Positions 10,120 to 33,751 of a stretch of 64,000 nt of DNA are shown here, piece after piece. The notes under the pieces are model-generated. The model did no database searches, was not told the DNA's origin, and was given only the letters and a program-made list of their open reading frames with translations. The stretch lies in contig CBDUQU010000001.1 in assembly GCA_965369445.1 (NCBI GenBank), positions 1,614-65,613 of the forward strand, in the 5' to 3' direction. Within the stretch, counting starts at the first letter, position 1, and each line of letters begins with the position of its first letter. A program made the translations under genes and the position numbers. The DNA comes from an uncultured bacterium (GTDB lineage Bacteria > Zixibacteria > MSB-5A5 > SM1-73).

Positions 10120-11576
10120 AAATCTTTATGAGGCAAGCTCTCCATACCGCAGCGACGAGCCTCTCCCTCCATTAGTTTCGTCAACTCCTTCTTTGTATCG
10201 TCGGGCAGCCTGGAAGGCTCATATTTCCTGATCAGTTTTTCCACCTCGCTGTGTGCTCTCTCTAAGAGCGTCTTGCCGCCCTCCTCCAGCCATCTGGCTC
10301 TGCTCGCCCGATCAATAACCGATCCCGGCAGATGGAACTCTTGCTTGAGATATCGAAGCGTATGTTTCGATATGAGCAGGTGTTTTTCCTTGAGCAGTTC
10401 CTCGAATCTGGGGAGTGACGGAAAATCCTCTTTAGGCTCGATGCCTTTTATCATGCGAAGGGTCATCCCGCAAATTTCGTTGTCCAAGACGAGCTTCTCC
10501 AAGCTCTGGCAGCTTTCGAAATCAAGCATTCCGGGGCCGGATATGTTATTGATACCGGAGAGGGCCGCCAGCGTTGCTCCCATCGAGGATTCCAGACCGG
10601 CCTGGGCGTCAAGCTGTTTGGCATCACTGAGTGATATGTAGGCCTGCGTGGGCATACCCAGGTGTTTTCCGATCTCGTTGTACGCGCAGTCTATCATCTG
10701 CGTCTCCACCGCGCCCATGGGCGTGGTCTCGTATCGAACGTCGAATATGGCCGGCGAGCCGCCGTAAAGAACGGGCGCGCCCGGATTGGCGAGCTGGCTT
10801 ATCACCACGCCGCTTAAGGTCTCGGCGGTATGCTGTACCAAAGTTCCCACCAGGGTGACCGGCGCCATGAATCCCGATAAGGGCATGGAGACGAACTCCA
10901 CGGGGATTGAATACTGCGCGCAGTCGACAAGATTTTGAGAGGTTACATCGCTCCATTTCAAAGGGGAAGTCGGGCAGCAGGAAAATATGGTCAGCGGTTT
11001 GGCGGCAAGCTCCTCTTTGGATCCGCGGACGGCAAGCTGCAAGTCCCTCATTATGTTGAATGCCTCGATGGTAAATGCCCCGGTGACCACCGGCTTTTCA
11101 CAGAAAAGAAGCGAAAGGTAAAGCCGGTAGCTGTCTGATATCTTCTCGTGCACGTCGGCGGGTATGAAGGCCGTGCTCTGGGAGGCGATGTGATCGAGCC
11201 GGCTAACGAGCCTGGCATATCTGACATAATCAGCCGTTGTGGGTCTGCGAATCTTCCCTGTGCCAGAGTCTAAGATATTCAACGCCGCAGAACCGGGTGT
11301 GAAATAGACGTTGTACTCCGAGAAATCGTGCGTTTCCTTGCCCAGGACGTCGAAGAGTTTGAAGGACTCAGGAACCGTCTGCAAGGCTCGATCGATGATC
11401 TCATCCGTGAAAAGGACGTGGTATCCGTCCATCTCTACCTTTGCCCCATGCTCCTGCAGCATTGAGAGAATATTCTTGTTGTGAATCTCCACGCCGAGCT
11501 TGCACAGGACCTCCCTCGCTTCCGAGATTATCCTATCCCTTAGCTCATCATTTAAGAATCTCACCACCGGCCTCAT
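10116..11576 (-). CDS. MttB-superfamily (trimethylamine/quaternary-amine):corrinoid methyltransferase, non-pyrrolysine type
   Basis: 486 aa from the ATG at 11576, which has AAGGAG 6 nt upstream. The size, the hydrophobic Gly-rich C-terminal half (ISGPGMLDFES...LDNEICG) and the corrinoid neighbours fit the family. There is no in-frame amber codon. Confidence 0.6.
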   Translation of the reverse strand: MRPVVRFLNDELRDRIISEAREVLCKLGVEIHNKNILSMLQEHGAKVEMDGYHVLFTDEIIDRALQTVPESFKLFDVLGKETHDFSEYNVYFTPGSAALNILDSGTGKIRRPTTADYVRYARLVSRLDHIASQSTAFIPADVHEKISDSYRLYLSLLFCEKPVVTGAFTIEAFNIMRDLQLAVRGSKEELAAKPLTIFSCCPTSPLKWSDVTSQNLVDCAQYSIPVEFVSMPLSGFMAPVTLVGTLVQHTAETLSGVVISQLANPGAPVLYGGSPAIFDVRYETTPMGAVETQMIDCAYNEIGKHLGMPTQAYISLSDAKQLDAQAGLESSMGATLAALSGINNISGPGMLDFESCQSLEKLVLDNEICGMTLRMIKGIEPKEDFPSLPRFEELLKEKHLLISKHTLRYLKQEFHLPGSVIDRASRARWLEEGGKTLLERAHSEVEKLIRKYEPSRLPDDTKKELTKLMEGEARRCGMESLPHKDL

Positions 11577-11689
11577 CACATGCTCCTTTCGGATTCGCAA
11601 AGGTTCGCCATATCTTACATCAAAGCTTCGAGAATTGCAAGAGAATATCATGCCCGGTTCGAAGGTTCGGGAAAAATGTAACTTTTCTG

Positions 11690-11718
11690 TTGACAGTACG
11701 TAAGTACTTACGTAAATT
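11690..11718 (+). promoter_or_regulatory. sigma-70-like promoter (TTGACA-N17-TAAATT) with an embedded 16-bp perfect palindrome ACGTAAGTACTTACGT (11698-11713); putative MarR operator
   Basis: Read directly in the 185-bp divergent spacer between the MttB operon and the MarR-GNAT gene. Confidence 0.4.
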
Positions 11719-11761
11719 GAAAGAAGTTGAACACCGGTATAGAGATGATGGAGGTTCATTC

Positions 11762-12730
11762 GTGGATTTACTAAAGCAACTGGGACCCTTGGCCCTGGCC
11801 AGTCGATTCAGGCGGCTGGCCGACTGGCTGTACAAGGACGGACCCCGCATTTACCGGGAGCGGTCGGCCGATTTCGAGCCCCGCTGGTTTCCCCTCTTCT
11901 ACCTTCTCAAGGAATCGGGTTCAGTCTCGGTGACGGCTGCGGCATCGGCGCTGGGATACAGCCATCCGGCGGTCAACCAGATTGCAGGTGAGATGGCCGT
12001 GCGAGGGTTTCTCGAATCGATCAAGGATAAGAAAGACGAGCGTAAGCGTCTCTTGCGCCTGACCAGAAAAGGGAAAGCTGCCGTATCGCGGTTGGAACCG
12101 GTGTGGGCGGATATCGAAGCTGCCGCCGGCGAGCTTGTGACTGAGGCCGGTACTGATTTCTTGGCCGCCGTCGGGCGGCTGGAAGATGCCCTGGAAGAAA
12201 CCGGGGTATACGAGCGGGTGATGCGCCGGGTCAAAAAGCGCCAACTGGAGAGAGTGGAAATCATCGACTACAAGCCGCAGTTCAAACGGTATTTCAAGTC
12301 GCTCAACCTCGAATGGCTCAAGAAGTACTTCGTTGTCGAGGATGAGGACGAGCAACTGCTCTCCGATCCGTATGGGAGAATCATCAAGGCGGGAGGGTTT
12401 GTTCTATTCGCCCGCCTTGACGGCAAAATAGTGGGTACGACAGCCCTGCTCAAGCATGACAAACATACCTACGAATTGACCAAGATGGCTGTTGCCAGGC
12501 GAGCGCAGGGCCGCCAGGTGGGACGCAAACTTGCACTTGCGGCGATCGAAAGGGCAAAGAAGGCAGGCGCAAAGCGGCTGGTTTTACTTACCAGCCCCCC
12601 ATTGACCGCAGCGTGCAACCTCTATCGCTCCCTGGGTTTCGTGGAGGTATCGCTTGCACAGCCCTGGGCAACTGCCTACAAGCGTGAATCAACTGCGATG
12701 AGTCTGGATTTGAAGAGAAAAAAACCTTAA
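11762..12730 (+). CDS. MarR-family winged-helix regulator fused to a C-terminal GNAT acetyltransferase domain
   Basis: GTG start at 11762 with GGAGG 6 nt upstream; the track's longer ORF overlaps the MttB start. The N-terminus carries a wHTH (SVSVTAAASALGYSHPAVNQIAGEMAVRGFLESIKDKKDERKRLLRLTRKG). The C-terminus carries the GNAT core (LFARLDGKIVGTTAL...RRAQGRQVGRKL). Confidence 0.6.
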   Translation: MDLLKQLGPLALASRFRRLADWLYKDGPRIYRERSADFEPRWFPLFYLLKESGSVSVTAAASALGYSHPAVNQIAGEMAVRGFLESIKDKKDERKRLLRLTRKGKAAVSRLEPVWADIEAAAGELVTEAGTDFLAAVGRLEDALEETGVYERVMRRVKKRQLERVEIIDYKPQFKRYFKSLNLEWLKKYFVVEDEDEQLLSDPYGRIIKAGGFVLFARLDGKIVGTTALLKHDKHTYELTKMAVARRAQGRQVGRKLALAAIERAKKAGAKRLVLLTSPPLTAACNLYRSLGFVEVSLAQPWATAYKRESTAMSLDLKRKKP

Positions 12731-12750
12731 AACATTAACCAGGAGGCGTT

Positions 12751-14145
12751 ATGAAAAGAGTGTCGATATCCTCGACCTCACGAGCCGGACTGTTGATGAG
12801 AGCACAGTTGTGCGCATTGCTGATCCTGCTGCTGATACCGGCGGGGCTGCTCTCCACATCTGCCAGGGCACAGTCGGCCGGGCAGGAGCGCCCAGACAGG
12901 GTGATCGATGCCCGGATGCAGGCAGAGATCATCGACAGTGTAACCCGGTCATTGAACGAAATCTATGTCTTCCCCGACATGGCTAAGAAAATGGAGAAAC
13001 ACCTTCGCAAGCAGTACAAGAAGAAAGCATACAAAGACATCACCAGCTTGACCGAATTCACCCAGAAGCTGACCGAAGATTTGGGGGAGATAAGTCACGA
13101 TAGACATCTGTGGGTAAGATTCGTGCCCGATGAGATGATGTCTATGTTTGAGGGTGACACCCTCACCGATGAGCAAAAGCAGCGCGAATTGGAGGAAAAG
13201 CGCAGAGACAACTTCTGCTTCAAGGAGATTAAGTTGCTGGAAGGTAACATTGGCTATGTCGACCTTCGCTGCTTTGCCGGGGCCGCCGATGCCGGGCCCA
13301 CGGCCATTGCTACGATGAATTTCTTAGCTTATACTGATGCCATTATATTCGATTTGCGGCAGAACGGCGGCGGCTCACCCAGCATGATCCAGCTCATCTC
13401 CAGCTACTTCTTCCCCGAGCGGGTTCATTTGAACAGCTTCTATATCCGCAAATCCGATTCGACGAAACAGTTCTGGACCCAAGCCCATGTGCAGGGACCC
13501 AGAATGAGCGACGTGGATCTCTATGTGCTGACGAGCAACTATACCTTCTCCGCCGCGGAGGAGTTCACATACAACCTCAAGAGCATGGAGCGGGCCACGA
13601 TAATAGGAGATACCACTGGGGGCGGGGCTCACCCCATCGAGGTAAAGCCGTTTGCCCACCTGAGTATCGGAATGTCATTGCCGTTTGGCCGCGCCGTGAA
13701 CCCGGTCACCGGAACCAACTGGGAGGGCACGGGAATCGCTCCCCATATCGCCGTACCCCAGGAGCAGGCGCTGGACGTGGGACATCTGGAGGCTCTGAAG
13801 AAACTGTTAGAAAAGACCGAAGATGCCGACCGAAAGAACCAGCTTGAGTGGGCCATTGATGGCAAGAACGTAAAACTCAATCCGGTTACGGTCGAGGCGA
13901 GCCAGTTGCAGAAATACGCGGGCCAATTCGGCCCCAGAAAGTTTTGGGTTGAAGACGGCGCGCTGCACTATCAGCGTGAGGACAGGCCCGTATACAAGCT
14001 CATACCTATGGGCGATCACAAGTTCATGCTGGACGGCCTCGACTATTTCAGGATTCAATTCGTGGAAGCTCCCACCGGCGAGTTCAACGAGATGATCGGG
14101 CAGTATGACAACGGCCGTACTGACGGCAACAAGAGAGACAAGTAG
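12751..14145 (+). CDS. S41 family C-terminal processing peptidase, secreted
   Basis: Signal peptide. The S41 signatures are present: IIFDLRQNGGG and the nucleophile block LTSNYTFSAAEEF. Confidence 0.85.
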   Translation: MKRVSISSTSRAGLLMRAQLCALLILLLIPAGLLSTSARAQSAGQERPDRVIDARMQAEIIDSVTRSLNEIYVFPDMAKKMEKHLRKQYKKKAYKDITSLTEFTQKLTEDLGEISHDRHLWVRFVPDEMMSMFEGDTLTDEQKQRELEEKRRDNFCFKEIKLLEGNIGYVDLRCFAGAADAGPTAIATMNFLAYTDAIIFDLRQNGGGSPSMIQLISSYFFPERVHLNSFYIRKSDSTKQFWTQAHVQGPRMSDVDLYVLTSNYTFSAAEEFTYNLKSMERATIIGDTTGGGAHPIEVKPFAHLSIGMSLPFGRAVNPVTGTNWEGTGIAPHIAVPQEQALDVGHLEALKKLLEKTEDADRKNQLEWAIDGKNVKLNPVTVEASQLQKYAGQFGPRKFWVEDGALHYQREDRPVYKLIPMGDHKFMLDGLDYFRIQFVEAPTGEFNEMIGQYDNGRTDGNKRDK

Positions 14146-16193: not shown

Positions 16194-17013
16194 AACGTTT
16201 GAACTCAGCGGTTTAAAAGCATTAGCTTTTAATCCGCTGAAGCGAATTGTTATTTGGTTTCTTTGATATTCCTAGTTTTTTGCAAATCCATTTTTCATAT
16301 TTTTTATCAATTGAAATTATACATCTATCCCAATGATCTTTTTCATCAATTTCTAAAGCTTCGTCATATTTTCTGATAAAATCTGATATAGAAATGTTGT
16401 CTGCTAGTACTTTTGCTTTAGTGCGTACCTGTGATGGCAGTTCGCTAAAGCTAATTGTTGACTTTTCAAGAATTATTCGGAAATATATTTTCTCTGCCTC
16501 AGAAACATTTTGCAGATTGGCGGATAATCTTTCCTCTACGGAATAATATCGTTTAGGAAGTTCCTTTTCTAGCTTTGATGGCAATTCATCAATGTTTTTA
16601 TATCTTATTTGTACTAGACCTGATAAATTAGACGGAAGATGTTTTTGATAGCTCCCCTTTTTGGTTTCTCGAATAAGCAATATTACATTTAATTGCTTAG
16701 CCAGGGCATACCCTAGCTCGATGTGGACATTTCGATTTTGGGATTTTGTTTCGAAGACGCAAAAAGCGCTTCTGTCCATTTGTTTTATCAACTCTTCCCA
16801 TAGCCACTTACCTGCATCAACAAATGGGGTTATTTCCATATTCTGTTTTGCTAAAAATTGTTTTACTTTCTTGTATAGTTTTTGGCCGCGAGAGTTTTTT
16901 TTAAATTCATGTCCATAGAAACATTTATGGTAATCTTTTAAATTTGTCTTTTTTGGTGAAAGCATTTCTTGTTCCTTTCAATTTTATTCTCACACAACGC
17001 TTGAACTGAGCGG
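16194..17013. repeat. 18-bp imperfect direct repeats (AACGTTTGAACTCAGCGG at 16194-16211; AACGCTTGAACTGAGCGG at 16996-17013) bracketing the TIR/NDT-like gene
   Basis: Read directly; 16/18 identical and in the same orientation. Confidence 0.6.
16222..16965 (-). CDS. TIR-like / nucleoside 2-deoxyribosyltransferase-like domain protein with an uncharacterised C-terminal half
   Basis: 247 aa at about 33% GC. The N-terminal 120 aa follow the flavodoxin-like TIR/NDT pattern (FYGHEF...FVDAGKWLWEELIKQMDRSAFCVFETKS...NVHIELGYALAKQLNVILLI, with an ELGYA motif as in the NDT family). The C-terminal 120 aa have no recognisable family. Confidence 0.45.
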   Translation of the reverse strand: MLSPKKTNLKDYHKCFYGHEFKKNSRGQKLYKKVKQFLAKQNMEITPFVDAGKWLWEELIKQMDRSAFCVFETKSQNRNVHIELGYALAKQLNVILLIRETKKGSYQKHLPSNLSGLVQIRYKNIDELPSKLEKELPKRYYSVEERLSANLQNVSEAEKIYFRIILEKSTISFSELPSQVRTKAKVLADNISISDFIRKYDEALEIDEKDHWDRCIISIDKKYEKWICKKLGISKKPNNNSLQRIKS

Positions 17014-17230
17014 CGACGGGTGGCCCGGCCTGTTCATCAGGCCGGGTTTATCATCGTCCTCACTCGACAGACCAGCGTCAGGGGCACAGGGCCCCAGATC
17101 TACCACTTCGGCCGACCCCAGGAAATGGACCGACAATCAAATCTACAGTTGACCCTCCCTAATGTCAAGTTATTTTGAGCAGGTTTAGCGTCAGTATCGA
17201 CGAACTGGCGCTGGGATATGCCGACCTCAC

Positions 17231-17395
17231 CTAAGCCCCTTTCTTCATCATTGTTAGAAATGAAGACCGGAGCGTATCGCTCATAAGGGCCTTTTTCACC
17301 GGCGGCAGTTTCAGGAATCCGCCGATGAAGCCGCGCATGAACGAGTGAGTGATGCTCTGCGGAATTCCCTTAGGTGGGAAGGGGAAGGGTTTATA
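17231..17395 (-). pseudogene. 3' relic (last ~54 codons plus stop) of a paralog of the 4Fe-4S protein gene at 32232..33488
   Basis: About 85% nucleotide identity to 32235-32360. In-frame translation gives ...PQSITHSFMRGFIGGFLKLPPVKKALMSDTLRSSFLTMMKKGA*, against ...PQSITHSFMRGFIGGFLRLAPVKKALMSDVLRSSFLGMMNKGA* in the intact gene. There is no start codon; an in-frame TGA lies immediately upstream, at the edge of an 11-bp-stem hairpin. Confidence 0.6.
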
Positions 17396-17478
17396 TCAGA
17401 AGGGAACCAGAACCCTTCCCCTTGGTTTGGGGGGCACTTTTTTAACGCGTCTACTACTCCACTTGCTCAGGGCTCAGG

Positions 17479-18654
17479 TCACGATTCGACCCGCAGAACC
17501 CTGTCGGGAATCCTGACCCTCTCGGGCTTAGAACCTTCTTCCGGATGCTCAAAGATGGGCAAATACCGCACTGCCATAGCGAAGATGAAGAATCCGGTGG
17601 CTACCAGAGCCAGGGTGACGGCGATCTCCATCCATGACGGAAAGTAGTTGACCCCGGACGAAGCCACGAAACCGGTCGTGGACACGTTTAATCTGTTCAG
17701 CAAAAACCCGACGATGGTGCACACCGCCGCTATGTAAAGTCCCCTGGTGGAGAGCCTTATCTTTCGTATCGAGAGCAGGACGATGGGAACGATTATTCCT
17801 GCTAAGATCTCCAACCAGAAGAGCCCGGTCTCCATGCGGAGGAGGAAGAGTTCCGACCAAACACCTCGCATGAAGAAATCATAAATCTTCATAAGCAGGT
17901 AAATCACCAAAACCACCAGAAGGATTCTTCCAATGTCCGCCAGCACGTCCTGCTTCAGGCGGTGACCGAAAGCTCTAAAGCTCAGGTGTGATTCAAAAAT
18001 GACCATGGCGCATCCTGCCGCAATCGCGGAGACGTAGAACAGCAGAGGCAGAGACGCCGAGTACCAGAGCGTGTATAGCCTGTGAGGCACGATCAAGAAC
18101 AACGAACCCAAAGAGGACTGGTGCATGGTGGAAAGGACGACTCCCAGTATGACCAGGGGAACCGTTATCCTGCCTATCCATCTCTTGGGCCCGCTCCAGC
18201 CCAAACGTTCGAAGAGGTTCGGACTGAATTCGAAAAACAACACCCCGGTGTATAACATGACGCACATGGCTACCTCAAACAACGGGGAATGGAAGTTGCC
18301 CATAAAGAGAGGATTGTATAGCTTGTCCGGGCGTCCCACGTCAAAGAGAAGACCTACGATCACCAGAAGGTACCCCAAAAAAGCGGTTAAGATGGCGGGT
18401 TTCAGAACGGGATAGAACCGCTTAACGTGAAACACGTAAACTGCCGCCGCCAGGGTAAACCCGCCGGCGGCCAACCCCACTCCCGATATGACGTCGAAAC
18501 CAACCCACAGCCCCCAGGGAAACCTATCACTCAAATTAGTAGCTGCCCCCAGGCCGCCGGTGAAACGGACAATGGTCGCTATAAGGCCAGCCACCCAGGT
18601 CAGAAGCAGGACTACTTTCCAGAAAGTTATCTTGAACGGTAATTTGATACTCAC
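17479..18654 (-). CDS. NrfD/PsrC-family polytopic membrane subunit of a quinone-interacting redox complex
   Basis: 391 aa with 8-10 TM helices and no cofactor motifs. It sits immediately downstream of a 4Fe-4S NrfC/HybA-type partner. Confidence 0.65.
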   Translation of the reverse strand: MSIKLPFKITFWKVVLLLTWVAGLIATIVRFTGGLGAATNLSDRFPWGLWVGFDVISGVGLAAGGFTLAAAVYVFHVKRFYPVLKPAILTAFLGYLLVIVGLLFDVGRPDKLYNPLFMGNFHSPLFEVAMCVMLYTGVLFFEFSPNLFERLGWSGPKRWIGRITVPLVILGVVLSTMHQSSLGSLFLIVPHRLYTLWYSASLPLLFYVSAIAAGCAMVIFESHLSFRAFGHRLKQDVLADIGRILLVVLVIYLLMKIYDFFMRGVWSELFLLRMETGLFWLEILAGIIVPIVLLSIRKIRLSTRGLYIAAVCTIVGFLLNRLNVSTTGFVASSGVNYFPSWMEIAVTLALVATGFFIFAMAVRYLPIFEHPEEGSKPERVRIPDRVLRVES

Positions 18655-18712
18655 CTTGATCTCCTTCTCGTTATCAGCCTTCGATCGCTTTGCAGCTGCA
18701 CGTTTGTATCTT

Positions 18713-19468
18713 CTATTTCAACTCAGAGTCCTGCTGCTTGTTTTTGTATTCGGCCAACTCCATCCTGCGGTCGATAATCCACCATACCCCGTAAAGGAAT
18801 GCACCGCCGAAGATGGCTATGCTGGGAACACTTTTGAGCGCTGCCCAGGTAAGCTCAGGCAGGGGACGATCCCCAAGGTTGCCGGGGAAGCCGAGCGTCT
18901 CAAGTGGAACGCTGGACAGGATCAAAACAGACGTTCCACCAATTTCCTTCTCGCCGTATATGTGGTCCACATACAGATCCGGATTTTCTTCTATGCGTTT
19001 CCGCGCCACCCTGATCAGCTCATCTCGATCTCCGAATATGGTGGCCTCGGTGGGACATGCTTCGGCGCAGGCGCTAATCTTTCCTTCCTTCTGCCTCTCG
19101 TAGCACATGGTGCATTTTCTCACCTTGGGCGCACGTTTGTCCCATTCATAAGTCGGGACGGTGAAGGGACAGGCCTGCATGCAGTAGCGACACCCTATGC
19201 ATTTGTGTGCGTGATATATTACCGCACCCTCCGGAGTCTTCTCGAATGCCCCTACCGGGCATACTGAGGCACAGGAGGGGTCGTTACAGTGCATGCACAG
19301 TTGACGATAATAGACGCTGTCCTTTTCCTTCACCACGGTATAGGCTGTGGAGGAGAGCTCCTTTTCTTCCTCCCCTGGAAGGCCATTGGCCTCCTTGCAG
19401 GCTAAAGCGCAAAGCTGACACCCGATACACTTGGTGATATCTATCAGAAGCGCTTTGGGTTTTGTCAT
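18713..19468 (-). CDS. 4Fe-4S ferredoxin-type iron-sulfur subunit (NrfC/HybA/DsrO-like) with a C-terminal membrane anchor
   Basis: Four CxxCxxCxxxCP-type clusters (CIGCQLCALAC; CMHCNDPSCASVCP; CIGCRYCMQACP; CTMCYER...CAEACP) and a C-terminal helix (SIAIFGGAFLYGVWWII). Confidence 0.8.
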   Translation of the reverse strand: MTKPKALLIDITKCIGCQLCALACKEANGLPGEEEKELSSTAYTVVKEKDSVYYRQLCMHCNDPSCASVCPVGAFEKTPEGAVIYHAHKCIGCRYCMQACPFTVPTYEWDKRAPKVRKCTMCYERQKEGKISACAEACPTEATIFGDRDELIRVARKRIEENPDLYVDHIYGEKEIGGTSVLILSSVPLETLGFPGNLGDRPLPELTWAALKSVPSIAIFGGAFLYGVWWIIDRRMELAEYKNKQQDSELK

Positions 19469-19573
19469 TTGATGACTCCTTGTTATTTCTCTTCTATCGT
19501 CTTCTTGTTGCTGGCTGAACCATTGGAATCCGCATGTCTTGCCTTTTGTGCTCTGTTCGCAAACACCATTGGG

Positions 19574-20185
19574 TTAGCTCGCTGCTTCCGGTGCAGCGTC
19601 CGCCGCGGCACGTTTCGATCTCGAGGCCACCGTCCCTTTTTCAACCAGCCGATCGAGCACCAGGTCTGCCGGAACGGCTTGACCCTTGGCCAGGGCTCTC
19701 ATCATGGCGTCGGATAGCTCCTCCGGGGTGAATGGCTTGGGCACGTAATCGGATACCCCGGCCCTCATGGCTTTGATCGAGGTTTCGACCGAGGGATAGC
19801 CGGTAATCAGAATGACCGCCATGTTAGGATTTTCCTTCTTTATTCTTCTGGCTACTTCAATCCCATCGATCTCCGGCATCTTCCAGTCAGCGATCAACAC
19901 GTCGAATTCACTGCTCTTGGCCTTGCTCAAGGCCTCCTCTCCGGACAAAGCCACATCCACCTTGTAGCCTTCCCGGGTCAGGATCTTCTTGCAACTGTTG
20001 CACACAGTCTGCTCGTCGTCCACCACCAGGACGCTGGCGGCCGATCTGGCGGTGGCAGCAAGCGCAACAGCAGGTCGGGCAGAAGCGGTCATCTCCACCC
20101 TCTCCTCTACCCTCTTACCTCGTCTGACCAGAACATCGATCAATATGGCCGCTATGAACGTGAACACTACCAACAAAGCTACCAT
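19574..20185 (-). CDS. membrane-anchored single-domain response-regulator receiver (REC) protein
   Basis: N-terminal TM helix, then a CheY-like REC domain (VLVVDDE...DVLIADWKMPEIDG...ITGYPSVE...KPF). Confidence 0.65.
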   Translation of the reverse strand: MVALLVVFTFIAAILIDVLVRRGKRVEERVEMTASARPAVALAATARSAASVLVVDDEQTVCNSCKKILTREGYKVDVALSGEEALSKAKSSEFDVLIADWKMPEIDGIEVARRIKKENPNMAVILITGYPSVETSIKAMRAGVSDYVPKPFTPEELSDAMMRALAKGQAVPADLVLDRLVEKGTVASRSKRAAADAAPEAAS

Positions 20186-20221
20186 TTCTCACTCCTTTTG
20201 TTTTGGCTGTCATTTGCTGAA

Positions 20222-20890
20222 TCAGTCCAGGGGTCTTTTCCCGGCAAGCGCTTTGACAATGCCAGCGAACACGGTGAAAATCACTATCGGACCCAGGGCG
20301 ATGAAGAATAGCCTGGAAAAAACCGGGGCTAAGACGGATTTGAAGACGAACTTTATCGGACCGACCTTAGGCTCTTCTGCAGGCATAGGAGCCACCGCCG
20401 GAGCGGTCACGGCTTCTTCCCTGACCACCTCTGCCACCATGGGCTTAGCCTTCGGGCTTACCACCCCTTTTTCGATCAACCGATCCAGCACCAAATCTGT
20501 CGGTACAGCCTGACCTTTGGCCAGGGCTCTGATCATGGCGTCGGACAGCTCTTCCGGGGTGAAGGGCTTCGGCACATAGTCGGATACCCCGGACCTGATG
20601 GCTTCAATCGAGGTCTCCACCGAGGGATAGCCGGTGATCAATATCACCGCAATCTCGGGATTCTCCCTCTTGATTCTTCTGGCCACCTCCATTCCATCCA
20701 TCTCCGGCATCTTCCAATCCGAGATGACCACGTCGAATCCGTTTCTTTTGATCTTGCTCAACGCCTCCTCGCCGGACAAAGCCACATCCACGTTGTAGCC
20801 TTCCCGGATCAGGATCTTCCTGCAGCTGGAGCAGACGGTCTTTTCGTCATCCACCACCAGGACATTCGGTTTACGTTTCATTTTAATCAC
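20222..20890 (-). CDS. REC-domain protein with a C-terminal membrane anchor
   Basis: Paralog of the preceding gene (VLVVDDE...VVISDWKMPEMDG...). The C-terminal hydrophobic tail is FSRLFFIALGPIVIFTVFAGIV. Confidence 0.65.
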   Translation of the reverse strand: MIKMKRKPNVLVVDDEKTVCSSCRKILIREGYNVDVALSGEEALSKIKRNGFDVVISDWKMPEMDGMEVARRIKRENPEIAVILITGYPSVETSIEAIRSGVSDYVPKPFTPEELSDAMIRALAKGQAVPTDLVLDRLIEKGVVSPKAKPMVAEVVREEAVTAPAVAPMPAEEPKVGPIKFVFKSVLAPVFSRLFFIALGPIVIFTVFAGIVKALAGKRPLD

Positions 20891-20895
20891 TCCCT

Positions 20896-21912
20896 TCAGT
20901 CAGCCCCCTGGGGGCTAACATGACAAAATAGAGGTTTCACCACCGCGCCCAGGATAATGGGCAACAAAGCCGGGAAGAAAAGCCGAGAGGCCAAAGCAGA
21001 CAGGAAGAGCTTTCCTATGGGGACCTTAGCCTGGTGATGCTCTTTCCCCAACCTTCCGGTTGGTTCCGGCTCTGGTTTTTCCTTTATCTCCAGTTCTGTT
21101 TTGACGCTTAGTCCTAAACCCGGGGGAATCACTCTATGTTCAGAATTCAGTTCATGTCTCGCCTGGTCTGACGGAATGGAGACATTGCCTGACCAGTTTT
21201 TTAGATCCTCTTCTAAGTAGAAAGGTTCCAGTTGAACGATCCATCCCTTTCCGAATGGATCTTTGTTGATCAAGTCGGTATTGAAGTTGATCTCATAGTT
21301 GATTTTGACCAGCCGGCCACGAACGGGCACGAGAAGTTTGTGCATCTGCTTGTCGGAAGCCAGTATCCTGATAAACAGTCTTCCTTGTTCGACCCTGCTC
21401 TGGTGACAGGGTAAGTCGACGTAAAGGATGTCGCCCACCGATTCCCTGAACAGGTTGTTTACCCCCACCTTGACAGTGCCGTTCTCCTCTATCTTGGCCC
21501 AGATATACTTCTGATAATGCAGCAGGTCTGTCCTTCCGCTCTTTCGCTCCTGCAGGGCCTTTCTTAGCACTTGCGTTAATTGATCAGGGCTGAGAGGCTT
21601 GGGAACGTAGTTGGAAACGCCCAATCTCATCGCCTGGACCGCGGATTCCACTGACGGATATCCGGTTATCATTATCACCACCATATCCGGATGATTCTTT
21701 TTCACGATCCTCAGGACCTCCATCCCGTCGATCTCCGGCATTTTCCAGTCGGCGATGAGCACGTCATATTTATCCTCTTCCACTTTCTTGAGGGCTTCTC
21801 GTCCGTTCAGAGCAATTTGCACATTGTGTCCTGCTCGGCTCAATATCTTCCGGCAGCTATTGCAAACTATCTCCTCATCATCCACCACTAATACATTTGC
21901 TCGGTACGGCAT
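20896..21912 (-). CDS. REC domain, GcvH-like (glycine-cleavage H / lipoyl-like) domain, then a C-terminal membrane anchor
   Basis: REC domain at the N-terminus. The central KYIWAKIEENGTVKVGVNNLFRESVGDILYVDLP...LINKDPFGKGWIVQL matches the GcvH pattern (E.G...VGITD.A...LGDIVFVELP ... DPYGEGWL). The C-terminal tail is ASRLFFPALLPIILGAVV. Confidence 0.6.
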   Translation of the reverse strand: MPYRANVLVVDDEEIVCNSCRKILSRAGHNVQIALNGREALKKVEEDKYDVLIADWKMPEIDGMEVLRIVKKNHPDMVVIMITGYPSVESAVQAMRLGVSNYVPKPLSPDQLTQVLRKALQERKSGRTDLLHYQKYIWAKIEENGTVKVGVNNLFRESVGDILYVDLPCHQSRVEQGRLFIRILASDKQMHKLLVPVRGRLVKINYEINFNTDLINKDPFGKGWIVQLEPFYLEEDLKNWSGNVSIPSDQARHELNSEHRVIPPGLGLSVKTELEIKEKPEPEPTGRLGKEHHQAKVPIGKLFLSALASRLFFPALLPIILGAVVKPLFCHVSPQGAD

Positions 21913-23048
21913 CTCCTATCACCTGCCTTTCTGTTCTTTCCGCTTCTCCTATAGCGCAAGAGATGTGCCGATTGTGACTTTTTTCACAAAGATTCGCCAA
22001 GCCTTTCAGTTAATGGCTTGAAATATAAGAGCTTATGTTTCGTGCCGAAGAACGAGGATGGGTGTATTCTGCAGATTCAGCCGAGTTGGTGCATGTCAAA
22101 GTTATGCACCGAAATCAGAGGGTTTTGTTGAGATACAAAGACTTAGGAGGAATTCGCGGTGTATAGGAAAAATATATAGTGAATACGTTTCATATACGTT
22201 TTTAGCACGTAGGTCCGAAATCCTCCGCCTCGGGCAGCGATTTCAGACATGATAAACTTCCCTCCCTCGATGGTTCGACAAGCTCACCACAAGTGGGAGG
22301 GAATAAAAGGGAGGGTGAAATGAGGTATTCTCTCGTTGGTAACGGACACCTTGTCCGTTACCCTTCAACTTCGTTCCCTTCGGGTCTGCCCAGACGGATC
22401 CGTAGGACAGCCTGCTTGACAGTTTCTCTTGTAGCCGCAGACTTCAGTCTGCGGGGGCGGATGGCGGGGGGCTCACAGGGTGATTGTCGGGCACCCCAAC
22501 GGCCCTTCGACAAGCTCAGGGCGGGATCGCCCTACAGGCCCATCCGGGCACCCCAACCCGCAAGTCTGGACTTGCTGGACATACTGGACTTGCTGGACTT
22601 TGTTTTTGGTTTTTTTTATGGTTCGAAGTCCGGGGTCGAGATAGAAGATCGTTATCCCGGAGGGGGGCGTTGGCCCCTGGCTGGGTTTTGGTGTTTGTGA
22701 ACCCGACGGCGGAGAGGGACCGACCCACCGGGTGACAAGTGAGCCGGTTTTCTTTGGAGTTGGTATGAAGCAGATGATTCATATGATTCTTATCCTCCCG
22801 AAAGTTACGGCTCATACAATAAACAATCGTCTCCTCAATAATACTGGAGCAATCTCTTTCACCATCAAAGTTCTTTTGAATTTGGTCTTTGTGGTAAGAG
22901 AGACACGCATTGGCGGTCTTTTTGTCCCCCTGAGAAGGGGTTCACCCTGAAGGGGGAAATCGAAGATCCGTAGAACAGGGGGTTATTGTATTTCTCCCCC
23001 TGATAAGGGGGACACAGGGGGTTCCATGTTGATTTCGTACCATTTTCC

Positions 23049-23077
23049 TTGACTTCTACAGGTCTGCGAGCTATAAT
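23049..23077 (+). promoter_or_regulatory. consensus sigma-70 promoter TTGACT-N17-TATAAT upstream of hsdM
   Basis: TTGACT at 23049-23054, a 17-nt spacer, TATAAT at 23072-23077; about 180 nt upstream of the hsdM ATG. Confidence 0.6.
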
Positions 23078-23257
23078 ATTCGTTGTCAAGAGAGCTTATA
23101 TCTGCAGGAGGCAGGGCTGGGCATACCGGCTCTGGGCTTGGACTACACGGGCCACAGTCATTCGTCACTCACGGCGCTCAAAGCCATGTTCAGACTGCTA
23201 TACGGATCAAAATAAACATAGTCAGCCACCAAGAGTGACGCAAACGTAGGGAAACAC

Positions 23258-24712
23258 ATGTTCGAGCAGACCTTCAAAAACATCGACGATGTGCTCTGGA
23301 AGGAGGCGGGGTGTTCGTCCGAGCTGGACTATACGGAACAATCCTCCTGGATGCTGTTCCTCAAATACCTCGATGACCTGGAGCAGGAACGGGCCATGCG
23401 CGCGAAATTGCGAGGCAAGTCCTACGAGTTCCTCCTGGAAAAACGCTTCCGGTGGTCCAGTTGGGCCGCGCCAAAAAACCGCGCCGGAGAGTTTGACCAC
23501 GACAAGGCGCTTACCGGCGACGACCTCATCGACTTCGTCAACCGTGAGCTCTTTCCCTACCTCCAGGGCTTCAAGCAGCGCGCCGCCAGCCCCGACACCA
23601 TCGAGTACAAGATTGGCGAGATCTTTGGCGAGATCAAGAGCAAATTCCAGAGCGGCTACAGCCTGCGGGACACGCTGGAACTGATGGACGCCCTGCGCTT
23701 CCGTTCGCAGAAGGAAAAGCACGAGCTGTCCCACCTTTACGAAGCCAAGATCAGGAACATGGGCAATGCCGGCCGCAACGGCGGCGAGTACTACACCCCC
23801 CGTCCGCTGATTCGCGCTATGGTCCGGGTGATCAAACCCAAGATCGGCGAGCGGATATATGACGGGGCTTGCGGTTCGGCGGGCTTCCTGTGCGAGTCCC
23901 ACGACTACCTGCGCAAGGGCAAACTGACCACCAGCCAACTCAAGAAACTCCAGACCAAGACCTTCTATGGAAAAGAGAAGAAGAGCCTGGCCTACGTCAT
24001 CGCCATCATGAACATGATCCTGCACGGCATCGACGCTCCCAACATCCTCCACACCAACACCCTGTCCGAGAACATCATGGACATCCAGGAGAAGGACCGC
24101 TTCAACGTCATCCTCGCCAATCCGCCCTTCGGCGGCAAAGAGCGCAAGGAAGTCCAGCAGAACTTTCCCATCAAGACCAGCGAAACCGCCTTCCTCTTCC
24201 TCCAGCACTTCATCAAATCGCTCAAGGCCGGCGGCCGCGCGGCGGTGGTCATCAAGAACACCTTCCTCTCCAACTCCGACAACGCCTCCCGCGCCCTGCG
24301 TCAGGAGCTGCTCGAAAACTGCAACCTCCATACTATTCTCGACTGCCCCGGCGGCACCTTCCTCGGGGCGGGCGTGAAGACCGTAGTGCTATTCTTCGAG
24401 AAGGGCGCGCCCACACGGAAAACATGGTACTACCAACTCAATCCCGGCCGGAGCCTGGGCAAGACCAACCCGCTCAACGACGACGACCTCAAGGAGTTCG
24501 TGAAACTGCAGGCCAAGTTCAAGGATTCTGAGCAGTCCTGGACCGTGAACATTGCCGACGTGGATCAGGAGACCTTCGACCTCTCCGTCAAGAACCCCAA
24601 CACGCCGGAGGAAGCCCCGCTTCGCGAACCACGGGAAATCGTCGAGGAGATGGCCGCGCTGGATGCCGAGAGCGCCAAGATCCTTGATGGGATTCGGGGG
24701 ATGCTGCGGTGA
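23258..24712 (+). CDS. hsdM: Type I restriction-modification system DNA methyltransferase subunit
   Basis: N6-adenine methyltransferase motif IV NPPFG (ILANPPFGGKERKE) and the SAM-binding region (IYDGACGSAGFL); operon position before hsdS/hsdR. Confidence 0.9.
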   Translation: MFEQTFKNIDDVLWKEAGCSSELDYTEQSSWMLFLKYLDDLEQERAMRAKLRGKSYEFLLEKRFRWSSWAAPKNRAGEFDHDKALTGDDLIDFVNRELFPYLQGFKQRAASPDTIEYKIGEIFGEIKSKFQSGYSLRDTLELMDALRFRSQKEKHELSHLYEAKIRNMGNAGRNGGEYYTPRPLIRAMVRVIKPKIGERIYDGACGSAGFLCESHDYLRKGKLTTSQLKKLQTKTFYGKEKKSLAYVIAIMNMILHGIDAPNILHTNTLSENIMDIQEKDRFNVILANPPFGGKERKEVQQNFPIKTSETAFLFLQHFIKSLKAGGRAAVVIKNTFLSNSDNASRALRQELLENCNLHTILDCPGGTFLGAGVKTVVLFFEKGAPTRKTWYYQLNPGRSLGKTNPLNDDDLKEFVKLQAKFKDSEQSWTVNIADVDQETFDLSVKNPNTPEEAPLREPREIVEEMAALDAESAKILDGIRGMLR

Positions 24713-26031
24713 ACTGTCAATTCTCTACAAAACCACTGCGCGACCTTATAAAGGAGAATCCCAAGTCTACGCTTAAGGTTCGAGACTCGCTTGATACGGG
24801 TCGCTTTATTTTCTTAACTAGCGGGACAAAGACTCGGTATTCGAATGATTACTTGTGTGAAGAAGAGAACCTCTTTCTTGCTACCGGAGGAACCGCTCAC
24901 GTTGGCTACTTCAATGGACCGGCCGCATATTCAACGGACTGCTATTCGATAACAACGAAAGAAGGGCTTTCAACAAAACTCCTGTATTACTTTCTTCTGA
25001 GTCAGTTAAATTACATCAATGAGTCGCTGTTCAGGGGAGCAGCGCTAAAGCACCTACAAAAGCGGGCCTTCAAAGAACTTCCCGTTCCTGTCCCGCCAGA
25101 GGTTCTTCAGGAGCGGATCGTGGCGATCCTCGACGAGGCGTTTGCTGGTATCGCTACGGCGGTCGCCAATGCCGAGAAGAACCTCCCCAACGCGCGGGAG
25201 TTGTGGGCAGGTGCATTGGCCTCGGCGTGCTCCGGGGCACTTACCAAGGGCTGGAGGCCCAAGAATAGCGAGATTGAACCGGCTAAAGACCTGTTGTTAC
25301 GCGCAATCGCTCGACGGCACGAGCAGCGTAGAACTTCCGGTAGGCCCAAAGAACCGCAACCCCCAATTGCTGCTACAAAGACAACTATCCCCGATACGTG
25401 GGTGTGGGCATCTCCCGAACAGCTTTCGACACATATTGTCGATTGTCCGCACAGTACTCCGAGGTGGGCCGATGAAGGGCCCATCTGTATCCGCACGACG
25501 AATTTCAGACCGGGATATCTCGACCTAGGTTCGGTGAGATACGTTTCGGAAGTCGCCTACACCGAACGGGCAAGGCGGTTAGAACCGAAACCAGGGGATG
25601 TCTTATACAGCCGTGAAGGCGGGATCCTAGGTATCGCTTGCACCTTTCCCGATGGACTGAAAGCGTGCTTGGGACAGAGGATGATGCTCTTTCGCCTTGA
25701 CAATTGCGCAGTGCATCCTCGCTATTTCGCTTGCGTACTGAACTCACCTCACATCTTGACGATAGTGAATCGGTTAACAGCGGGAGCCGCTGCACCACAC
25801 ATAAACATACGAGACATAAGGACATTTCCGATCCCGCTTCCGCCGTTCTCTGAACAGCAACAAATCGTCACAGTTCTTGACACTGTGTGGACATCGATCC
25901 AGCGCCTTGAGCGGATCCAATTGCGGAAGCTGGACTTCCTCGCCGAACTCAAGCAATCCATTCTCCAGAAAGCCTTCTCTGGCGAACTCACCGCCAAACC
26001 CGACAAAGCCCTCGCGGAGGCCGGACTATGA
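24709..26031 (+). CDS. hsdS: Type I restriction-modification specificity subunit with two target-recognition domains
   Basis: Two variable target-recognition domains separated by conserved central and C-terminal helices (the latter LKQSILQKAFSGELT). ATGA overlaps with hsdM and hsdR. Confidence 0.85.
   Translation: MNCQFSTKPLRDLIKENPKSTLKVRDSLDTGRFIFLTSGTKTRYSNDYLCEEENLFLATGGTAHVGYFNGPAAYSTDCYSITTKEGLSTKLLYYFLLSQLNYINESLFRGAALKHLQKRAFKELPVPVPPEVLQERIVAILDEAFAGIATAVANAEKNLPNARELWAGALASACSGALTKGWRPKNSEIEPAKDLLLRAIARRHEQRRTSGRPKEPQPPIAATKTTIPDTWVWASPEQLSTHIVDCPHSTPRWADEGPICIRTTNFRPGYLDLGSVRYVSEVAYTERARRLEPKPGDVLYSREGGILGIACTFPDGLKACLGQRMMLFRLDNCAVHPRYFACVLNSPHILTIVNRLTAGAAAPHINIRDIRTFPIPLPPFSEQQQIVTVLDTVWTSIQRLERIQLRKLDFLAELKQSILQKAFSGELTAKPDKALAEAGL

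Positions 26032-33673: not shown

Positions 33674-33751
<78 letters not shown>

What the first reader, a model, noticed from the sequence alone, without database searches (positions are those of the whole stretch)
17231..17440. Frame-preserved 3' relic of an Fe-S protein paralog abutting the island, ending at a perfect 11-bp-stem hairpin
Region 17231-17395 (minus strand) encodes the last ~54 residues plus stop of a paralog of the 4Fe-4S gene at 32232-33488. Similarity is about 85% at the nucleotide level, and the substitutions are mostly synonymous or conservative. Homology stops abruptly at an in-frame TGA, inside the hairpin GGGGAAGGGTT...AACCCTTCCCC (about 17384-17436). Most of a gene was therefore deleted or replaced here. 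The relic lies just downstream of the NrfCD-like and receiver-protein block, which mirrors the way the intact paralog sits upstream of the kinase-regulator pair. Together with the adjacent AT-rich island, this marks a rearrangement hotspot. The hairpin may be the terminus of the inserted or excising element.
Basis: seen in the sequence. Interest (0 to 1): 0.5.

Follow-up and report, generated by a model that had tools for sequence, protein, structure and literature searches.

The report
Orphaned tail of an interrupted gene
The 132-base fragment is the original tail of the window's own Fe-S gene, cut off from it by a 15-kb block of sensor and electron-transport genes that brought a replacement tail; this is a tidy but ordinary scar of recombination.

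Summary
The fragment is real. Window 17231-17362 (minus strand) matches the last 43 codons plus stop of the Fe-S gene at 32232-33488, at 81% identity with no gaps. It is not a leftover of a separate paralog. A related Zixibacteria contig (L174) has the uninterrupted layout: tRNA-Arg, tRNA-Glu, an intact Fe-S gene, a spacer and promoter, variable genes, then the S41 peptidase and GNAT genes. Its left part matches window 33925-32232. Its Fe-S tail and downstream flank match window 17362-17133, and its right part matches 14145-11880. In the window, 14,869 bp separate the gene body from its native tail: kinase, sigma-54 regulator, a type I R-M system, three receiver proteins, NrfC and NrfD-like genes, and the hairpin. 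The gene now ends in a more divergent substitute tail. A close strain (L161) keeps a longer orphan of 83 codons. The hairpin travels with the NrfCD block in relatives that lack the relic, so it is native to that block. Variable DNA starts 7 nt after its 3' arm. The AT-rich TIR-like gene is an independent indel. One oddity remains: relic copies differ almost only synonymously.

The parts
17231..17362 (-). Orphaned native 3' end of the Fe-S gene: codons 376-418 plus TAG. This is repeat copy 2.
   Evidence: 81.1% identical to 32232-32363. 89.4% identical to the tail of the uninterrupted Fe-S gene of L174, and the homology continues into the downstream flank.
32232..32363 (-). Substitute 3' end now completing the intact Fe-S gene. 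This is repeat copy 1.
   Evidence: 83.3% identical to the L174 tail, against 89.4% for the relic. It is the outlier among ten compared tails (identity matrix). At protein level it is shared exactly or nearly so with P0001, P0005 and P0008, even though the N-terminal parts of P0005 and P0008 are more divergent (86% and 81%).
32232..33488 (-). Intact 418-aa 4Fe-4S dicluster protein gene
   Evidence: Pfam Fer4 families. The gene and its upstream region are 88.8% identical to L174 1-1687.
33674..33926 (-). tRNA-Glu and tRNA-Arg upstream of the Fe-S gene; they form the left flank shared with L174
   Evidence: ARAGORN; BLAST.
17363..32231 (-). The 14,869-bp block lying between the Fe-S gene and its orphaned tail. 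It holds the histidine kinase (30468-32057), sigma-54 response regulator (29070-30467), type I R-M hsdMSR (23258-28421, + strand), RR-GcvH (20896-21912), two receiver proteins (20222-20890 and 19574-20185), an NrfC/HmcB-like gene (18713-19468) and an NrfD/HmcC-like gene (17479-18654).
   Evidence: Pfam and NCBIfam. The block is absent from L174 between the homologous flanks. The same gene order without the R-M system is seen in L025, L093 and L168.
17379..17423 (-). Conserved hairpin at the 3' end of the NrfCD block: 13-bp arms and a 19-nt loop
   Evidence: The arms are invariant in L001-L006, L025, L161-L164 and L168. L167's contig ends inside the 3' arm.
17363..17371 (-). Junction filler AAGGGAATT between the conserved CCACCT and the relic. 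With the next 7 nt (CCGCAGA) it is shared with L161, where 90 further unrelated nt follow it.
   Evidence: Identity to L162-164, L168 and L002 ends at 17372 or 17361.
17133..17230 (-). Native downstream flank of the Fe-S gene: a 48-nt variable spacer and a promoter-like site, TTGACA-17-TAGATT, at 17168-17140
   Evidence: Homologous to L174 1688-1785. The promoter-like site comes from the consensus scan. It is shared with L001, L161 and L020.
16222..16965 (-). AT-rich TIR-like gene. It is variable cargo and is not tied to the relic.
   Evidence: GC content 0.34. Only weak TIR hits. Absent from L001. Bounded by 18-nt direct repeats at 16194-16211 and 16996-17013.
11441..14145 (+). GNAT/MarR and S41 peptidase genes; they form the right flank shared with L174
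   Evidence: Pfam. 90.2% identical to L174 6071-8334.

Best explanation
The relic is the original 3' end of the window's own tRNA-linked Fe-S gene. A block carrying kinase, sigma-54 regulator, receiver proteins and NrfCD became joined into that gene. The block is now 14.9 kb after a later R-M insertion. It was led by its own copy of an Fe-S 3' end.

Mechanism (inferred). The left join was homologous, inside the Fe-S coding region. The right join was illegitimate, placing the DNA just after the block's terminal hairpin against an internal Fe-S codon. This is the outcome expected in two known cases: a circular or linear fragment carrying a truncated Fe-S copy integrates by a single crossover, or homology-facilitated illegitimate recombination occurs. 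The gene stayed intact using the incoming tail. The native tail, with its own downstream spacer and promoter, was pushed 15 kb away as an orphan.

Trimming (inferred). The orphan was first longer: 83 codons, as in L161. In the window lineage it was trimmed to 43 codons by a 217-nt deletion between CCGCAGA and CCTCAGA.

Shown versus inferred. Shown: the two-flank collinearity with L174, the duplicated tails, the junction sequences and the longer L161 form. Inferred: the recombination mechanism and the direction of the event (insertion, as opposed to L174 being a secondary loop-out between the two tails).
For: Collinearity with L174:
- L174 1-1687 (two tRNAs plus the whole Fe-S gene) matches window 33925-32232 at 88.8%.
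- L174 1556-1785 (Fe-S codon 376 through the stop and 98 nt beyond) matches window 17362-17133.
- L174 6071-8334 (S41 and GNAT) matches window 14145-11880 at 90.2%.
- L174 has no kinase or NrfCD genes between these parts.

The two tails:
- The relic is 89.4% identical to the L174 tail, which is the orthologous level. The tail in use is 83.3% identical.
- At the 25 sites where the two window tails differ, L174 agrees with the relic at 15 and with the tail in use at 7.
- The two tails are direct repeats 15,001 bp apart.

The block:
- It is a conserved unit in other Zixibacteria. The Fe-S-kinase junction is shared with L025, L093 and L094.

The junction:
- L161 has the same post-hairpin junction, then 90 further unrelated nt, then Fe-S codons 336-418. 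The window form equals the L161 form minus 217 nt between 6/7-matching heptamers.

Different histories of block and flank:
- Between the window and L161, the block is about 96-97% identical. The relic is 87% identical, with pS of 0.42 against 0.06-0.11 for NrfC and NrfD.

Precedent and reproducibility:
- Partial duplication of the homologous locus (109-950 bp) is the documented outcome of single-crossover integration of a molecule carrying a truncated copy (PMC3240628).
- The arrangement is reproduced in independent assemblies.
Against: - Polarity is unresolved. L174 could be a secondary deletion by recombination between the two tails.
- The closest outgroup for the block (L168) and three near-identical strains (L162-164) carry a different post-hairpin flank. 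I could not see what lies left of their kinase genes.
- L025 and L093 have Fe-S through NrfD contiguous with no orphan tail. An orphan is therefore not an obligatory by-product.
- Identity between L174 and the window's Fe-S gene varies from 71% to 98% per 100 nt. The lower identity of the tail in use is only suggestive.
- The contexts of P0005 and P0008, which share the substitute tail, were not seen.
- The L161 and window relic alleles are 13% apart. The simple 'L161 form, then deletion' descent needs either later allele exchange on the right flank or two independent joins from the same donor type.
Confidence: 0.7

Rival explanations
1. One reading: a complete second Fe-S paralog once lay just downstream of NrfD, and most of it was deleted in place, leaving the last codons. 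A variant is that integration of a circle carrying a full-length Fe-S copy created two full copies, and the distal one then decayed from its 5' side.
For: Two truncation lengths exist with the same left junction: 83 codons in L161 and 43 in the window and L001. This looks like progressive erosion from the 5' side. Relic alleles diverge with pN/pS of about 0.1, as if they had evolved inside working genes.
Against: No intact Fe-S gene follows NrfD in any of the 80 genome loci or the 9 further close contigs examined. The relic's 3' flank is the native flank of the single tRNA-linked gene in L174, so no extra paralogous locus is needed. The 106 nt between CCACCT and the L161 relic show no Fe-S homology.
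Confidence: 0.13
2. The two tails are attL and attR of a site-specific integrative island. Such an island targets the 3' end of the Fe-S gene and carries a replacement tail, as many islands do at tRNA or protein-gene 3' ends.
For: Direct repeats of a gene's 3' end flank a 15-kb segment, and the gene is kept intact. Independent orphan Fe-S tails exist in other lineages, L171 and L173.
Against: No integrase, recombinase or transposase family was found among the 29 block and other large ORFs scanned with Pfam between window 1484 and 54654. Small ORFs and 54.7-64 kb were not scanned. The repeats are only 81% identical, and the longest identical run is 14 nt. The relic length differs between strains, 43 against 83 codons. 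The block consists of conserved chromosomal regulatory and respiratory genes.
Confidence: 0.04
3. The orphan tail is not dead. Either it is expressed as a small peptide, or it is kept usable because loss of the block (by recombination between the two tails, or by exchange with block-free strains) restores it as the working gene end. Selection would then still act on its codons. This is compatible with the best explanation for its origin.
For: The window and L001 share the junction yet differ by 5 synonymous and 2 nonsynonymous changes. pS is 0.166 and pN is 0.020, the same as for neighbouring NrfC and NrfD. Five of the 7 changes are at third codon positions. Window against L161 gives 13 synonymous and 4 nonsynonymous changes (p = 7e-6). 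L171 against L173 gives 17 and 7.
Against: The shared-junction pair rests on only 7 changes (p about 0.01-0.05). In the window there is no ATG, GTG or TTG upstream of the homology, and no Shine-Dalgarno sequence before the first in-frame ATG at 17340-17338 (sequence). The larger contrasts can arise from alleles imported from intact genes. The longest identical run between the tails is 14 nt, which is poor substrate for RecA-mediated recombination.
Confidence: 0.12
4. A metagenome assembly chimera joined two loci through the similar 132-nt stretch.
For: The source is a metagenome-assembled contig, and repeats can mislead assemblers.
Against: The NrfD-hairpin-relic-flank join is present in four independent assemblies: the window, L169, L001 and L161. 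The Fe-S-kinase join is present in L025, L093 and L094. The repeats are only 81% identical.
Confidence: 0.01

Closest known systems
C-terminal displacement with orphaned 3' fragments in rhs, CDI and T6SS effector loci (Jackson et al. 2009, cited in PMC5361080; Kirchberger et al. 2017, PMC5361080)
   Same: An incoming segment anchored by homology in a conserved gene brings a new 3' end plus downstream genes. The old 3' end, with its own downstream DNA, is shifted distally and retained as an orphan. Homology-facilitated illegitimate recombination is the proposed mechanism.
   Different: This is not a polymorphic toxin. The two tails encode nearly the same peptide (38/43 aa identical). The cargo is a 9-15 kb two-component and NrfCD-type operon rather than a toxin tip and immunity gene. 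There is a single orphan, not an array.
Partial duplication of the target after single-crossover integration of a molecule carrying a truncated homolog, and homology-facilitated illegitimate recombination (PMC3240628; de Vries and Wackernagel 2002 and Prudhomme et al. 2002, as cited in PMC5361080)
   Same: There is one homologous junction and one non-homologous junction. Part of the homologous locus is duplicated on either side of the insert. The duplications of 109-950 bp seen experimentally bracket the 132 and 252 nt seen here. There is short microhomology at the illegitimate or deletion junction.
   Different: The mechanism is inferred from comparative sequence only. Donor and recipient tails differ by 19%. 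The insert is much larger than in the experiments.
Duplicated gene 3' ends at the att sites of integrative genomic islands
   Same: A 3'-end repeat flanks a large insert, and the interrupted gene remains intact.
   Different: There is no recombinase, no identical core, a variable repeat length, and cargo made of conserved chromosomal genes.

Membership tests
Gene remnant (3' pseudogene fragment) | Significant in-frame homology to part of an intact gene | tested here: met
   132 nt, 81% identical, E = 5e-31, 38/43 aa identical. 40/43 aa identical to other family members.
Gene remnant (3' pseudogene fragment) | Lacks the rest of the gene and its own start signals | tested here: met
   Homology stops at 17362. 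Upstream are unrelated codons and a TGA. There is no ATG, GTG or TTG before the homology.
Gene remnant (3' pseudogene fragment) | Evolves without constraint on the encoded protein | tested here: inconclusive
   pN/pS is about 0.1 among relic alleles, including the shared-junction pair with only 7 changes. Import of alleles from intact genes could explain this.
Target duplication by homologous plus illegitimate integration (single crossover or HFIR) | An uninterrupted 'empty' configuration exists whose two flanks match the two sides of the insert | tested here: met
   L174 against the window.
Target duplication by homologous plus illegitimate integration (single crossover or HFIR) | Part of the homologous locus is present on both sides of the insert, in direct orientation | tested here: met
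   32232-32363 and 17231-17362. 252 nt in L161.
Target duplication by homologous plus illegitimate integration (single crossover or HFIR) | One junction is non-homologous, with at most short microhomology | tested here: met
   The join between the post-hairpin sequence and Fe-S codon 336 or 376; the CCGCAGA/CCTCAGA heptamers. There is no homology between the 106-nt filler and Fe-S genes.
Target duplication by homologous plus illegitimate integration (single crossover or HFIR) | Direction of the event (insertion rather than secondary deletion in the empty form) | not testable with these tools
   This needs complete genomes and a species phylogeny. The contig look-ups were exhausted.
Integrative genomic island (att-site duplication) | A tyrosine or serine recombinase encoded at one end of the insert | tested here: not met
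   No such Pfam family in the block's ORFs or the other large window ORFs scanned between 1484 and 54654.
Integrative genomic island (att-site duplication) | An identical core sequence in both repeats | tested here: not met
   The longest identical run is 14 nt within repeats that are 81% identical.
Intrinsic (rho-independent) terminator, for the hairpin | A stable G+C-rich stem-loop | tested here: met
   13-bp perfect stem, -22.8 kcal/mol, z = -3.0.
Intrinsic (rho-independent) terminator, for the hairpin | A U-tract immediately 3' of the stem on the transcribed strand | tested here: not met
   On the operon's minus strand the stem is followed by CCCACCTAAGG. The scan found T-runs only on the + strand.
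   The hairpin is present with NrfD in all close relatives and in relatives at 83-89% NrfD identity, whatever follows it.
Integron-type gene cassettes, considered for the variable genes after the relic | An integron integrase and attC sites with R''/R' boxes | tested here: inconclusive
   No integrase. Cassette-like single-gene indels have boundaries at G|TTRRRY-like sequences and imperfect palindromes. No attC model was available.

The most novel reading that the evidence does not exclude
The kinase, sigma-54 regulator, receiver and NrfCD block behaves as a recombinase-free, homology-anchored movable operon. It docks into the 3' end of the Fe-S gene and brings its own tail. The orphaned native tail is kept in working order, so that recombination between the tails or with block-free strains can remove the block and restore the gene. 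This would make the block a reversible module. It would explain why orphan tails in several lineages still evolve like coding sequence.
Probability: 0.12. Interest if true: 0.6.

Novelty: new member of a known kind. Interest (0 to 1): 0.33.

Why it matters
The result changes the annotation. There is no evidence for a lost second Fe-S paralog. The window instead holds one gene whose end was displaced by a large operon-sized block. It is a clear natural example, in an uncultivated phylum, of how whole regulatory and respiratory operons can be spliced into a chromosome by one homologous and one illegitimate join with no mobile-element machinery. It also marks the positions after the NrfD hairpin and after the Fe-S gene as strain-level hotspots where defence-type genes (R-M, TIR-like, Mrr, toxin-antitoxin) turn over. 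The codon-like evolution of the orphan tail is the one feature that could repay further work.

Tried and rejected
- Searched 80 genome loci syntenic for NrfD for an intact Fe-S gene downstream. None was found; only L001 has the relic.
- Checked the roughly 1.1-kb gene between NrfD and the kinase in other phyla. It is a cysteine-rich GcvH-like protein, not an Fe-S homolog.
- Searched Rfam across the relic and leader region and across related loci. No family matched except an unrelated tRNA.
- Scanned JGI metagenomes with the relic peptide plus its junction codons. All 80 hits match only the Fe-S part and none carries the junction. None of the seven intact genes whose 3' flank I read (L081-L084, L089, L090, L105) shares the relic's downstream flank.
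- Tested whether the 106-nt filler in L161 is degenerate Fe-S sequence, or is homologous to the other post-hairpin variants. Alignment scores were within the shuffled range.
- Looked for an integrase or transposase among the large ORFs between window 1484 and 54654. None was found.
- P0241, a 47-aa 'mini Fe-S tail', turned out to be a gene cut by a contig edge.
- Considered conversion of the relic by the intact copy 15 kb away. Rejected, because the two are only 81% identical.
- Considered the relic being more conserved than the adjacent spacer as a sign of constraint. The spacer (62% identical between the window and L001) instead looks like a separate, more divergent segment that starts at the stop codon.

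Full report
**1. The observation**

A self-comparison of 17000-17600 against the whole window gives one significant match. Window 17231-17362 aligns to 32232-32363 on the same strand, with 107/132 identities (81.1%), no gaps and E = 5e-31. Read on the minus strand, this is the last 43 codons plus the TAG stop of the 418-aa 4Fe-4S dicluster protein gene at 32232-33488. Sixteen codons differ only synonymously and five residues differ.

- '54 residues' is the length of the open frame back to a TGA at 17396-17398. The codons of that frame at 17363-17395 are unrelated to the Fe-S gene.
- Identity is 81%, not 85%.
- The inverted repeat has 13-bp perfect arms at 17379-17391 and 17411-17423 with a 19-nt loop. 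Its predicted energy is -22.8 kcal/mol, z = -3.0.
- Homology ends at 17362, 16 nt short of the hairpin, not inside it.

The arrangement is not an assembly artefact. An independent ENA assembly (L169) is 99.76% identical to window 19508-11552 and has an identical relic. L001 and L161 carry the same NrfD-hairpin-relic join.

**2. Organism and neighbourhood**

The best protein and locus matches are to Candidatus Zixiibacteriota metagenome-assembled genomes. On the minus strand the window reads, from high to low coordinates:
- tRNA-Arg and tRNA-Glu (33926-33674);
- the Fe-S gene;
- a HAMP histidine kinase (30468-32057);
- a sigma-54 response regulator (29070-30467);
- a type I R-M system on the opposite strand (23258-28421);
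- a receiver-GcvH fusion and two receiver proteins (21912-19574);
- an NrfC/HmcB-like gene and an NrfD/HmcC-like gene (19468-17479);
- the hairpin, then the relic, a 48-nt spacer and a near-consensus promoter-like site (TTGACA-17-TAGATT, 17168-17140);
- an AT-rich TIR-like gene (16965-16222) and a RelB-like antitoxin (16153-15962).

Facing these on the plus strand are a beta-lactamase-family gene, an S41 peptidase gene and a GNAT/MarR gene (15870-11441).

In relatives, the order Fe-S, kinase, regulator, RR-GcvH, receiver(s), NrfC, NrfD is contiguous (L025, L093). In more distant ones the order is kinase through NrfD (L015, L016, L023, L027, L168). The R-M system is therefore a later insertion.

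**3. No relative has a second intact copy after NrfD**

Among 80 genome loci syntenic for NrfD, only L001 has any Fe-S-like sequence after NrfD, and it is the same 43-codon relic. The same holds for nine further contigs fetched through close NrfD homologs, except L161 and L169.

**4. The hairpin belongs to the NrfCD block**

The arms AAGGGGAAGGGT...ACCCTTCCCCTT are unchanged after NrfD in L001-L006 and L025 (83-97% NrfD identity), in L161-L164 and in L168. What follows differs in every group. L167's contig ends inside the 3' arm.

Among genomes with at least 96% NrfD identity, similarity to the window stops at 17372 (L162, L163, L164) or at 17361 (L002). L168, at 89% NrfD identity, also stops at 17372. 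There are three alternative continuations:
- the relic type (window, L169, L001, L161);
- an ORF6N-gene type (L162-164 and the more distant L168);
- an Rce1-like-gene type (L002).

The hairpin is thus on the conserved side of a strain-level breakpoint. It is not the end of an inserted element. It has no U-tract on the operon strand, so it is not a textbook intrinsic terminator. Its arms show no covariation, only invariance.

**5. The decisive comparison**

P0004 is the Fe-S homolog whose C-terminus is among the most relic-like (40/43 aa identical). It lies on ENA contig L174. L174 reads: tRNA-Arg, tRNA-Glu, an intact Fe-S gene (431-1687), an Mrr-type nuclease gene, three other genes, then the S41 and GNAT genes on the opposite strand.

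BLAST against the window gives three collinear pieces:
- L174 1-1687 matches window 33925-32232 (88.8%).
- L174 1556-1785 matches window 17362-17133. This match starts exactly at Fe-S codon 376 and runs through the stop codon into the spacer and promoter.
- L174 6071-8334 matches window 14145-11880 (90.2%).

L174 is therefore the uninterrupted form of the locus. In the window, 14,869 bp (32231-17363) lie between the gene and a second copy of its last 132 nt.

The relic is 89.4% identical to the L174 tail, which is the level seen for the rest of the locus. The tail now in use is 83.3% identical. At the 25 sites where the two window tails differ, L174 agrees with the relic at 15 and with the tail in use at 7.

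The tail in use is the outlier among all tails compared. At protein level its last roughly 70 residues are identical or nearly so to P0005 and P0008, whose N-terminal parts are only 86% and 81% identical. The closer P0002-P0004 (93-89%) have the relic-type end. This mosaic fits replacement of the gene's end. The genomic contexts of P0005 and P0008 could not be examined.

**6. A longer orphan in a sister strain**

L161 has NrfD 97% identical and the block about 96-97% identical. After the hairpin it has the same 16 nt (AAAGGAATTCCGCAGA), then 90 further nt with no detectable homolog. Together these make the 106-nt filler. Fe-S codons 336-418 plus the stop follow. That stretch is 252 nt, 84% identical to the window's intact gene and 90.5% identical to the intact gene of L081. 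Then come a spacer and the same promoter.

The window and L001 form equals the L161 form minus 217 nt lying between CCGCAGA and CCTCAGA. This is a microhomology-type deletion and it is inferred. The L161 and window relic alleles are only 87% identical (pS 0.42), while NrfC and NrfD between the same genomes have pS of 0.06-0.11. The right-hand flank therefore has a different history from the block. Either alleles were exchanged later, or the same donor type joined independently in two backgrounds.

**7. Mechanism**

The anatomy has four elements:
- a large insert;
- a partial direct duplication of the target gene's 3' end on both sides;
- one junction inside homologous coding sequence;
- one junction joining unrelated DNA to an internal codon.

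This is what single-crossover integration of a molecule carrying a truncated homolog produces. Duplications of 109-950 bp were seen experimentally in E. coli (PMC3240628). It also falls within the range of homology-facilitated illegitimate recombination. The closest described evolutionary pattern is C-terminal displacement in rhs, CDI and T6SS loci. There an incoming 3' end plus downstream genes shifts the old 3' end distally as an orphan (PMC5361080).

No integrase, transposase or other recombinase family was found in the block or among the other large ORFs scanned between 1484 and 54654. The repeats share at most 14 identical bases in a row. A site-specific island is therefore unlikely.

What I cannot decide is polarity. 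L174 may never have had the block, or it may have lost it by recombination between the two tails.

**8. The AT-rich 'island'**

The TIR-like gene (GC content 0.34, with only weak TIR matches) is missing from L001, which has the same relic and junction. It is bounded by 18-nt direct repeats.

The whole stretch between the relic and S41 is a mosaic of single-gene indels:
- TIR-like gene in the window;
- antitoxin alone in the window, against antitoxin plus toxin in L001;
- the beta-lactamase-family gene present in the window and absent from L174;
- Mrr and others in L174.

The hotspot idea is right, but the relic and the AT-rich gene are independent.

**9. An unexpected feature**

Relic copies differ almost only synonymously:

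| Comparison | Synonymous | Nonsynonymous | p |
|---|---|---|---|
| Window vs L161 | 13 | 4 | 7e-6 |
| L001 vs L161 | 10 | 4 | 2e-4 |
| Window vs L001 (same junction) | 5 | 2 | about 0.01 |

For the window-L001 pair, pS is 0.166 and pN is 0.020. These values are indistinguishable from those of NrfC and NrfD between the same genomes. Five of the 7 changes are at third codon positions.

Two truncated Fe-S tails in another lineage (L171 and L173) have different 5' break points and a shared 3' flank. They show the same pattern, 17 synonymous and 7 nonsynonymous changes.

The larger contrasts are explained if the tails diverged inside working genes and were imported with the flank. The shared-junction pair rests on too few changes to prove continuing selection. 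The window offers no plausible start codon or ribosome-binding site for the fragment.

One reading would fit. Because the orphan regains function whenever the block is lost or exchanged with block-free strains, it is intermittently under selection. That is speculation.

**10. Verdict**

It is wrong on the origin (not a separate paralog decayed in place), on the hairpin and on the tie to the AT-rich gene. The feature is a new example of a known kind of recombination scar and is of modest interest.

Noticed in passing
window 23258-28421 (+); also L002 611-5973 and L020 3679-7600: A type I R-M system (hsdM, hsdS, hsdR) is inserted between the sigma-54 regulator and the RR-GcvH gene. These two genes are adjacent in L025, L093, L015 and L168. 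L002 has a different type I R-M at the same spot. L020 has a RelB-like toxin-antitoxin module there. This is a second strain-level hotspot inside the cluster.
   Followed up: partly
window 16222-16965 (-), with repeats at 16194-16211 and 16996-17013: A 247-aa AT-rich ORF has only sub-threshold TIR-domain matches (Pfam PF10137 5e-5; PADLOC TIR effector 7e-5). It is absent from L001 and bounded by 18-nt direct repeats, CCGCTSAGTTCAARCGTT. The right boundary reads G|TTAGGT, which is reminiscent of cassette boundaries.
   Followed up: partly
window 15962-16153 (-); L001 11598-11800: A RelB-like antitoxin gene lacks its toxin. L001 has antitoxin plus toxin, and homology to the window stops at 15959, right after the antitoxin stop codon.
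   Followed up: partly
window 14298-15957; L174 5853-6002: The beta-lactamase-family gene (14365-15870) is an indel relative to L174. The sequences flanking it in the window are only 18 nt apart in L174.
   Followed up: partly
window 16990-17168 (-); L174 1740-1950; L161 5800-5950; L002 11420-11580: A near-consensus promoter-like site is followed by a roughly 150-nt G+C-rich leader ending in ...GGCCGGGCCACC(C/A)GTC.... It precedes a different first gene in each genome: TIR-like, Mrr, Rce1-like. No Rfam family matches.
   Followed up: partly
L001 11543, L003 5619 (-), L004 4674 (-), L005 4310, L020 3749, L087 1959, L161 5941 and 6063: A conserved palindromic motif, TTATNNGGAAACCATATAA followed by TCARTAGTT, lies 20-35 nt upstream of the start codons of unrelated genes in several Zixibacteria contigs. 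There is no Rfam match. It could be an operator or a recombination site.
   Followed up: partly
L171 3401-3631; L173 1744-1932: Two further stand-alone truncated Fe-S tails (76-aa and 62-aa ORFs) occur in another lineage. They have different upstream neighbours, and the tails plus downstream flank align over 355 nt at 83% identity. Orphaned tails of this gene family are recurrent.
   Followed up: partly
proteins P0001-P0008 (Fe-S family), residues about 393-418: The C-terminal tip is mosaic relative to the rest of the protein. P0005 and P0008 share the window gene's tip essentially unchanged despite 81-86% N-terminal identity. P0002-P0004 (89-93%) carry the relic-type tip.
   Followed up: partly
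window 17372-17430 (-); L003-L006 and L025 after NrfD: The loop of the post-NrfD hairpin contains CCCTTC. This could pair with the 5' arm in place of the 3' arm. The arms and this element are sequence-invariant across relatives, while the surrounding non-coding DNA is unalignable.
   Followed up: no
L007, L010, L011, L013, L022, L028, L031, L038, between NrfD and the kinase: In more divergent Zixibacteria and in other phyla, a roughly 260-300-aa protein lies between NrfD and a kinase-regulator pair. It has an N-terminal CxWMxxG...C...C..C motif and a GcvH-like part. This parallels the receiver-GcvH fusion in the window (20896-21912).
   Followed up: no
window 7502-11759 (-): MttB-family methyltransferase, corrinoid-binding, Met_synt_B12-like and homocysteine S-methyltransferase genes form a methylamine or corrinoid methyl-transfer cluster next to the GNAT gene.
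   Followed up: no
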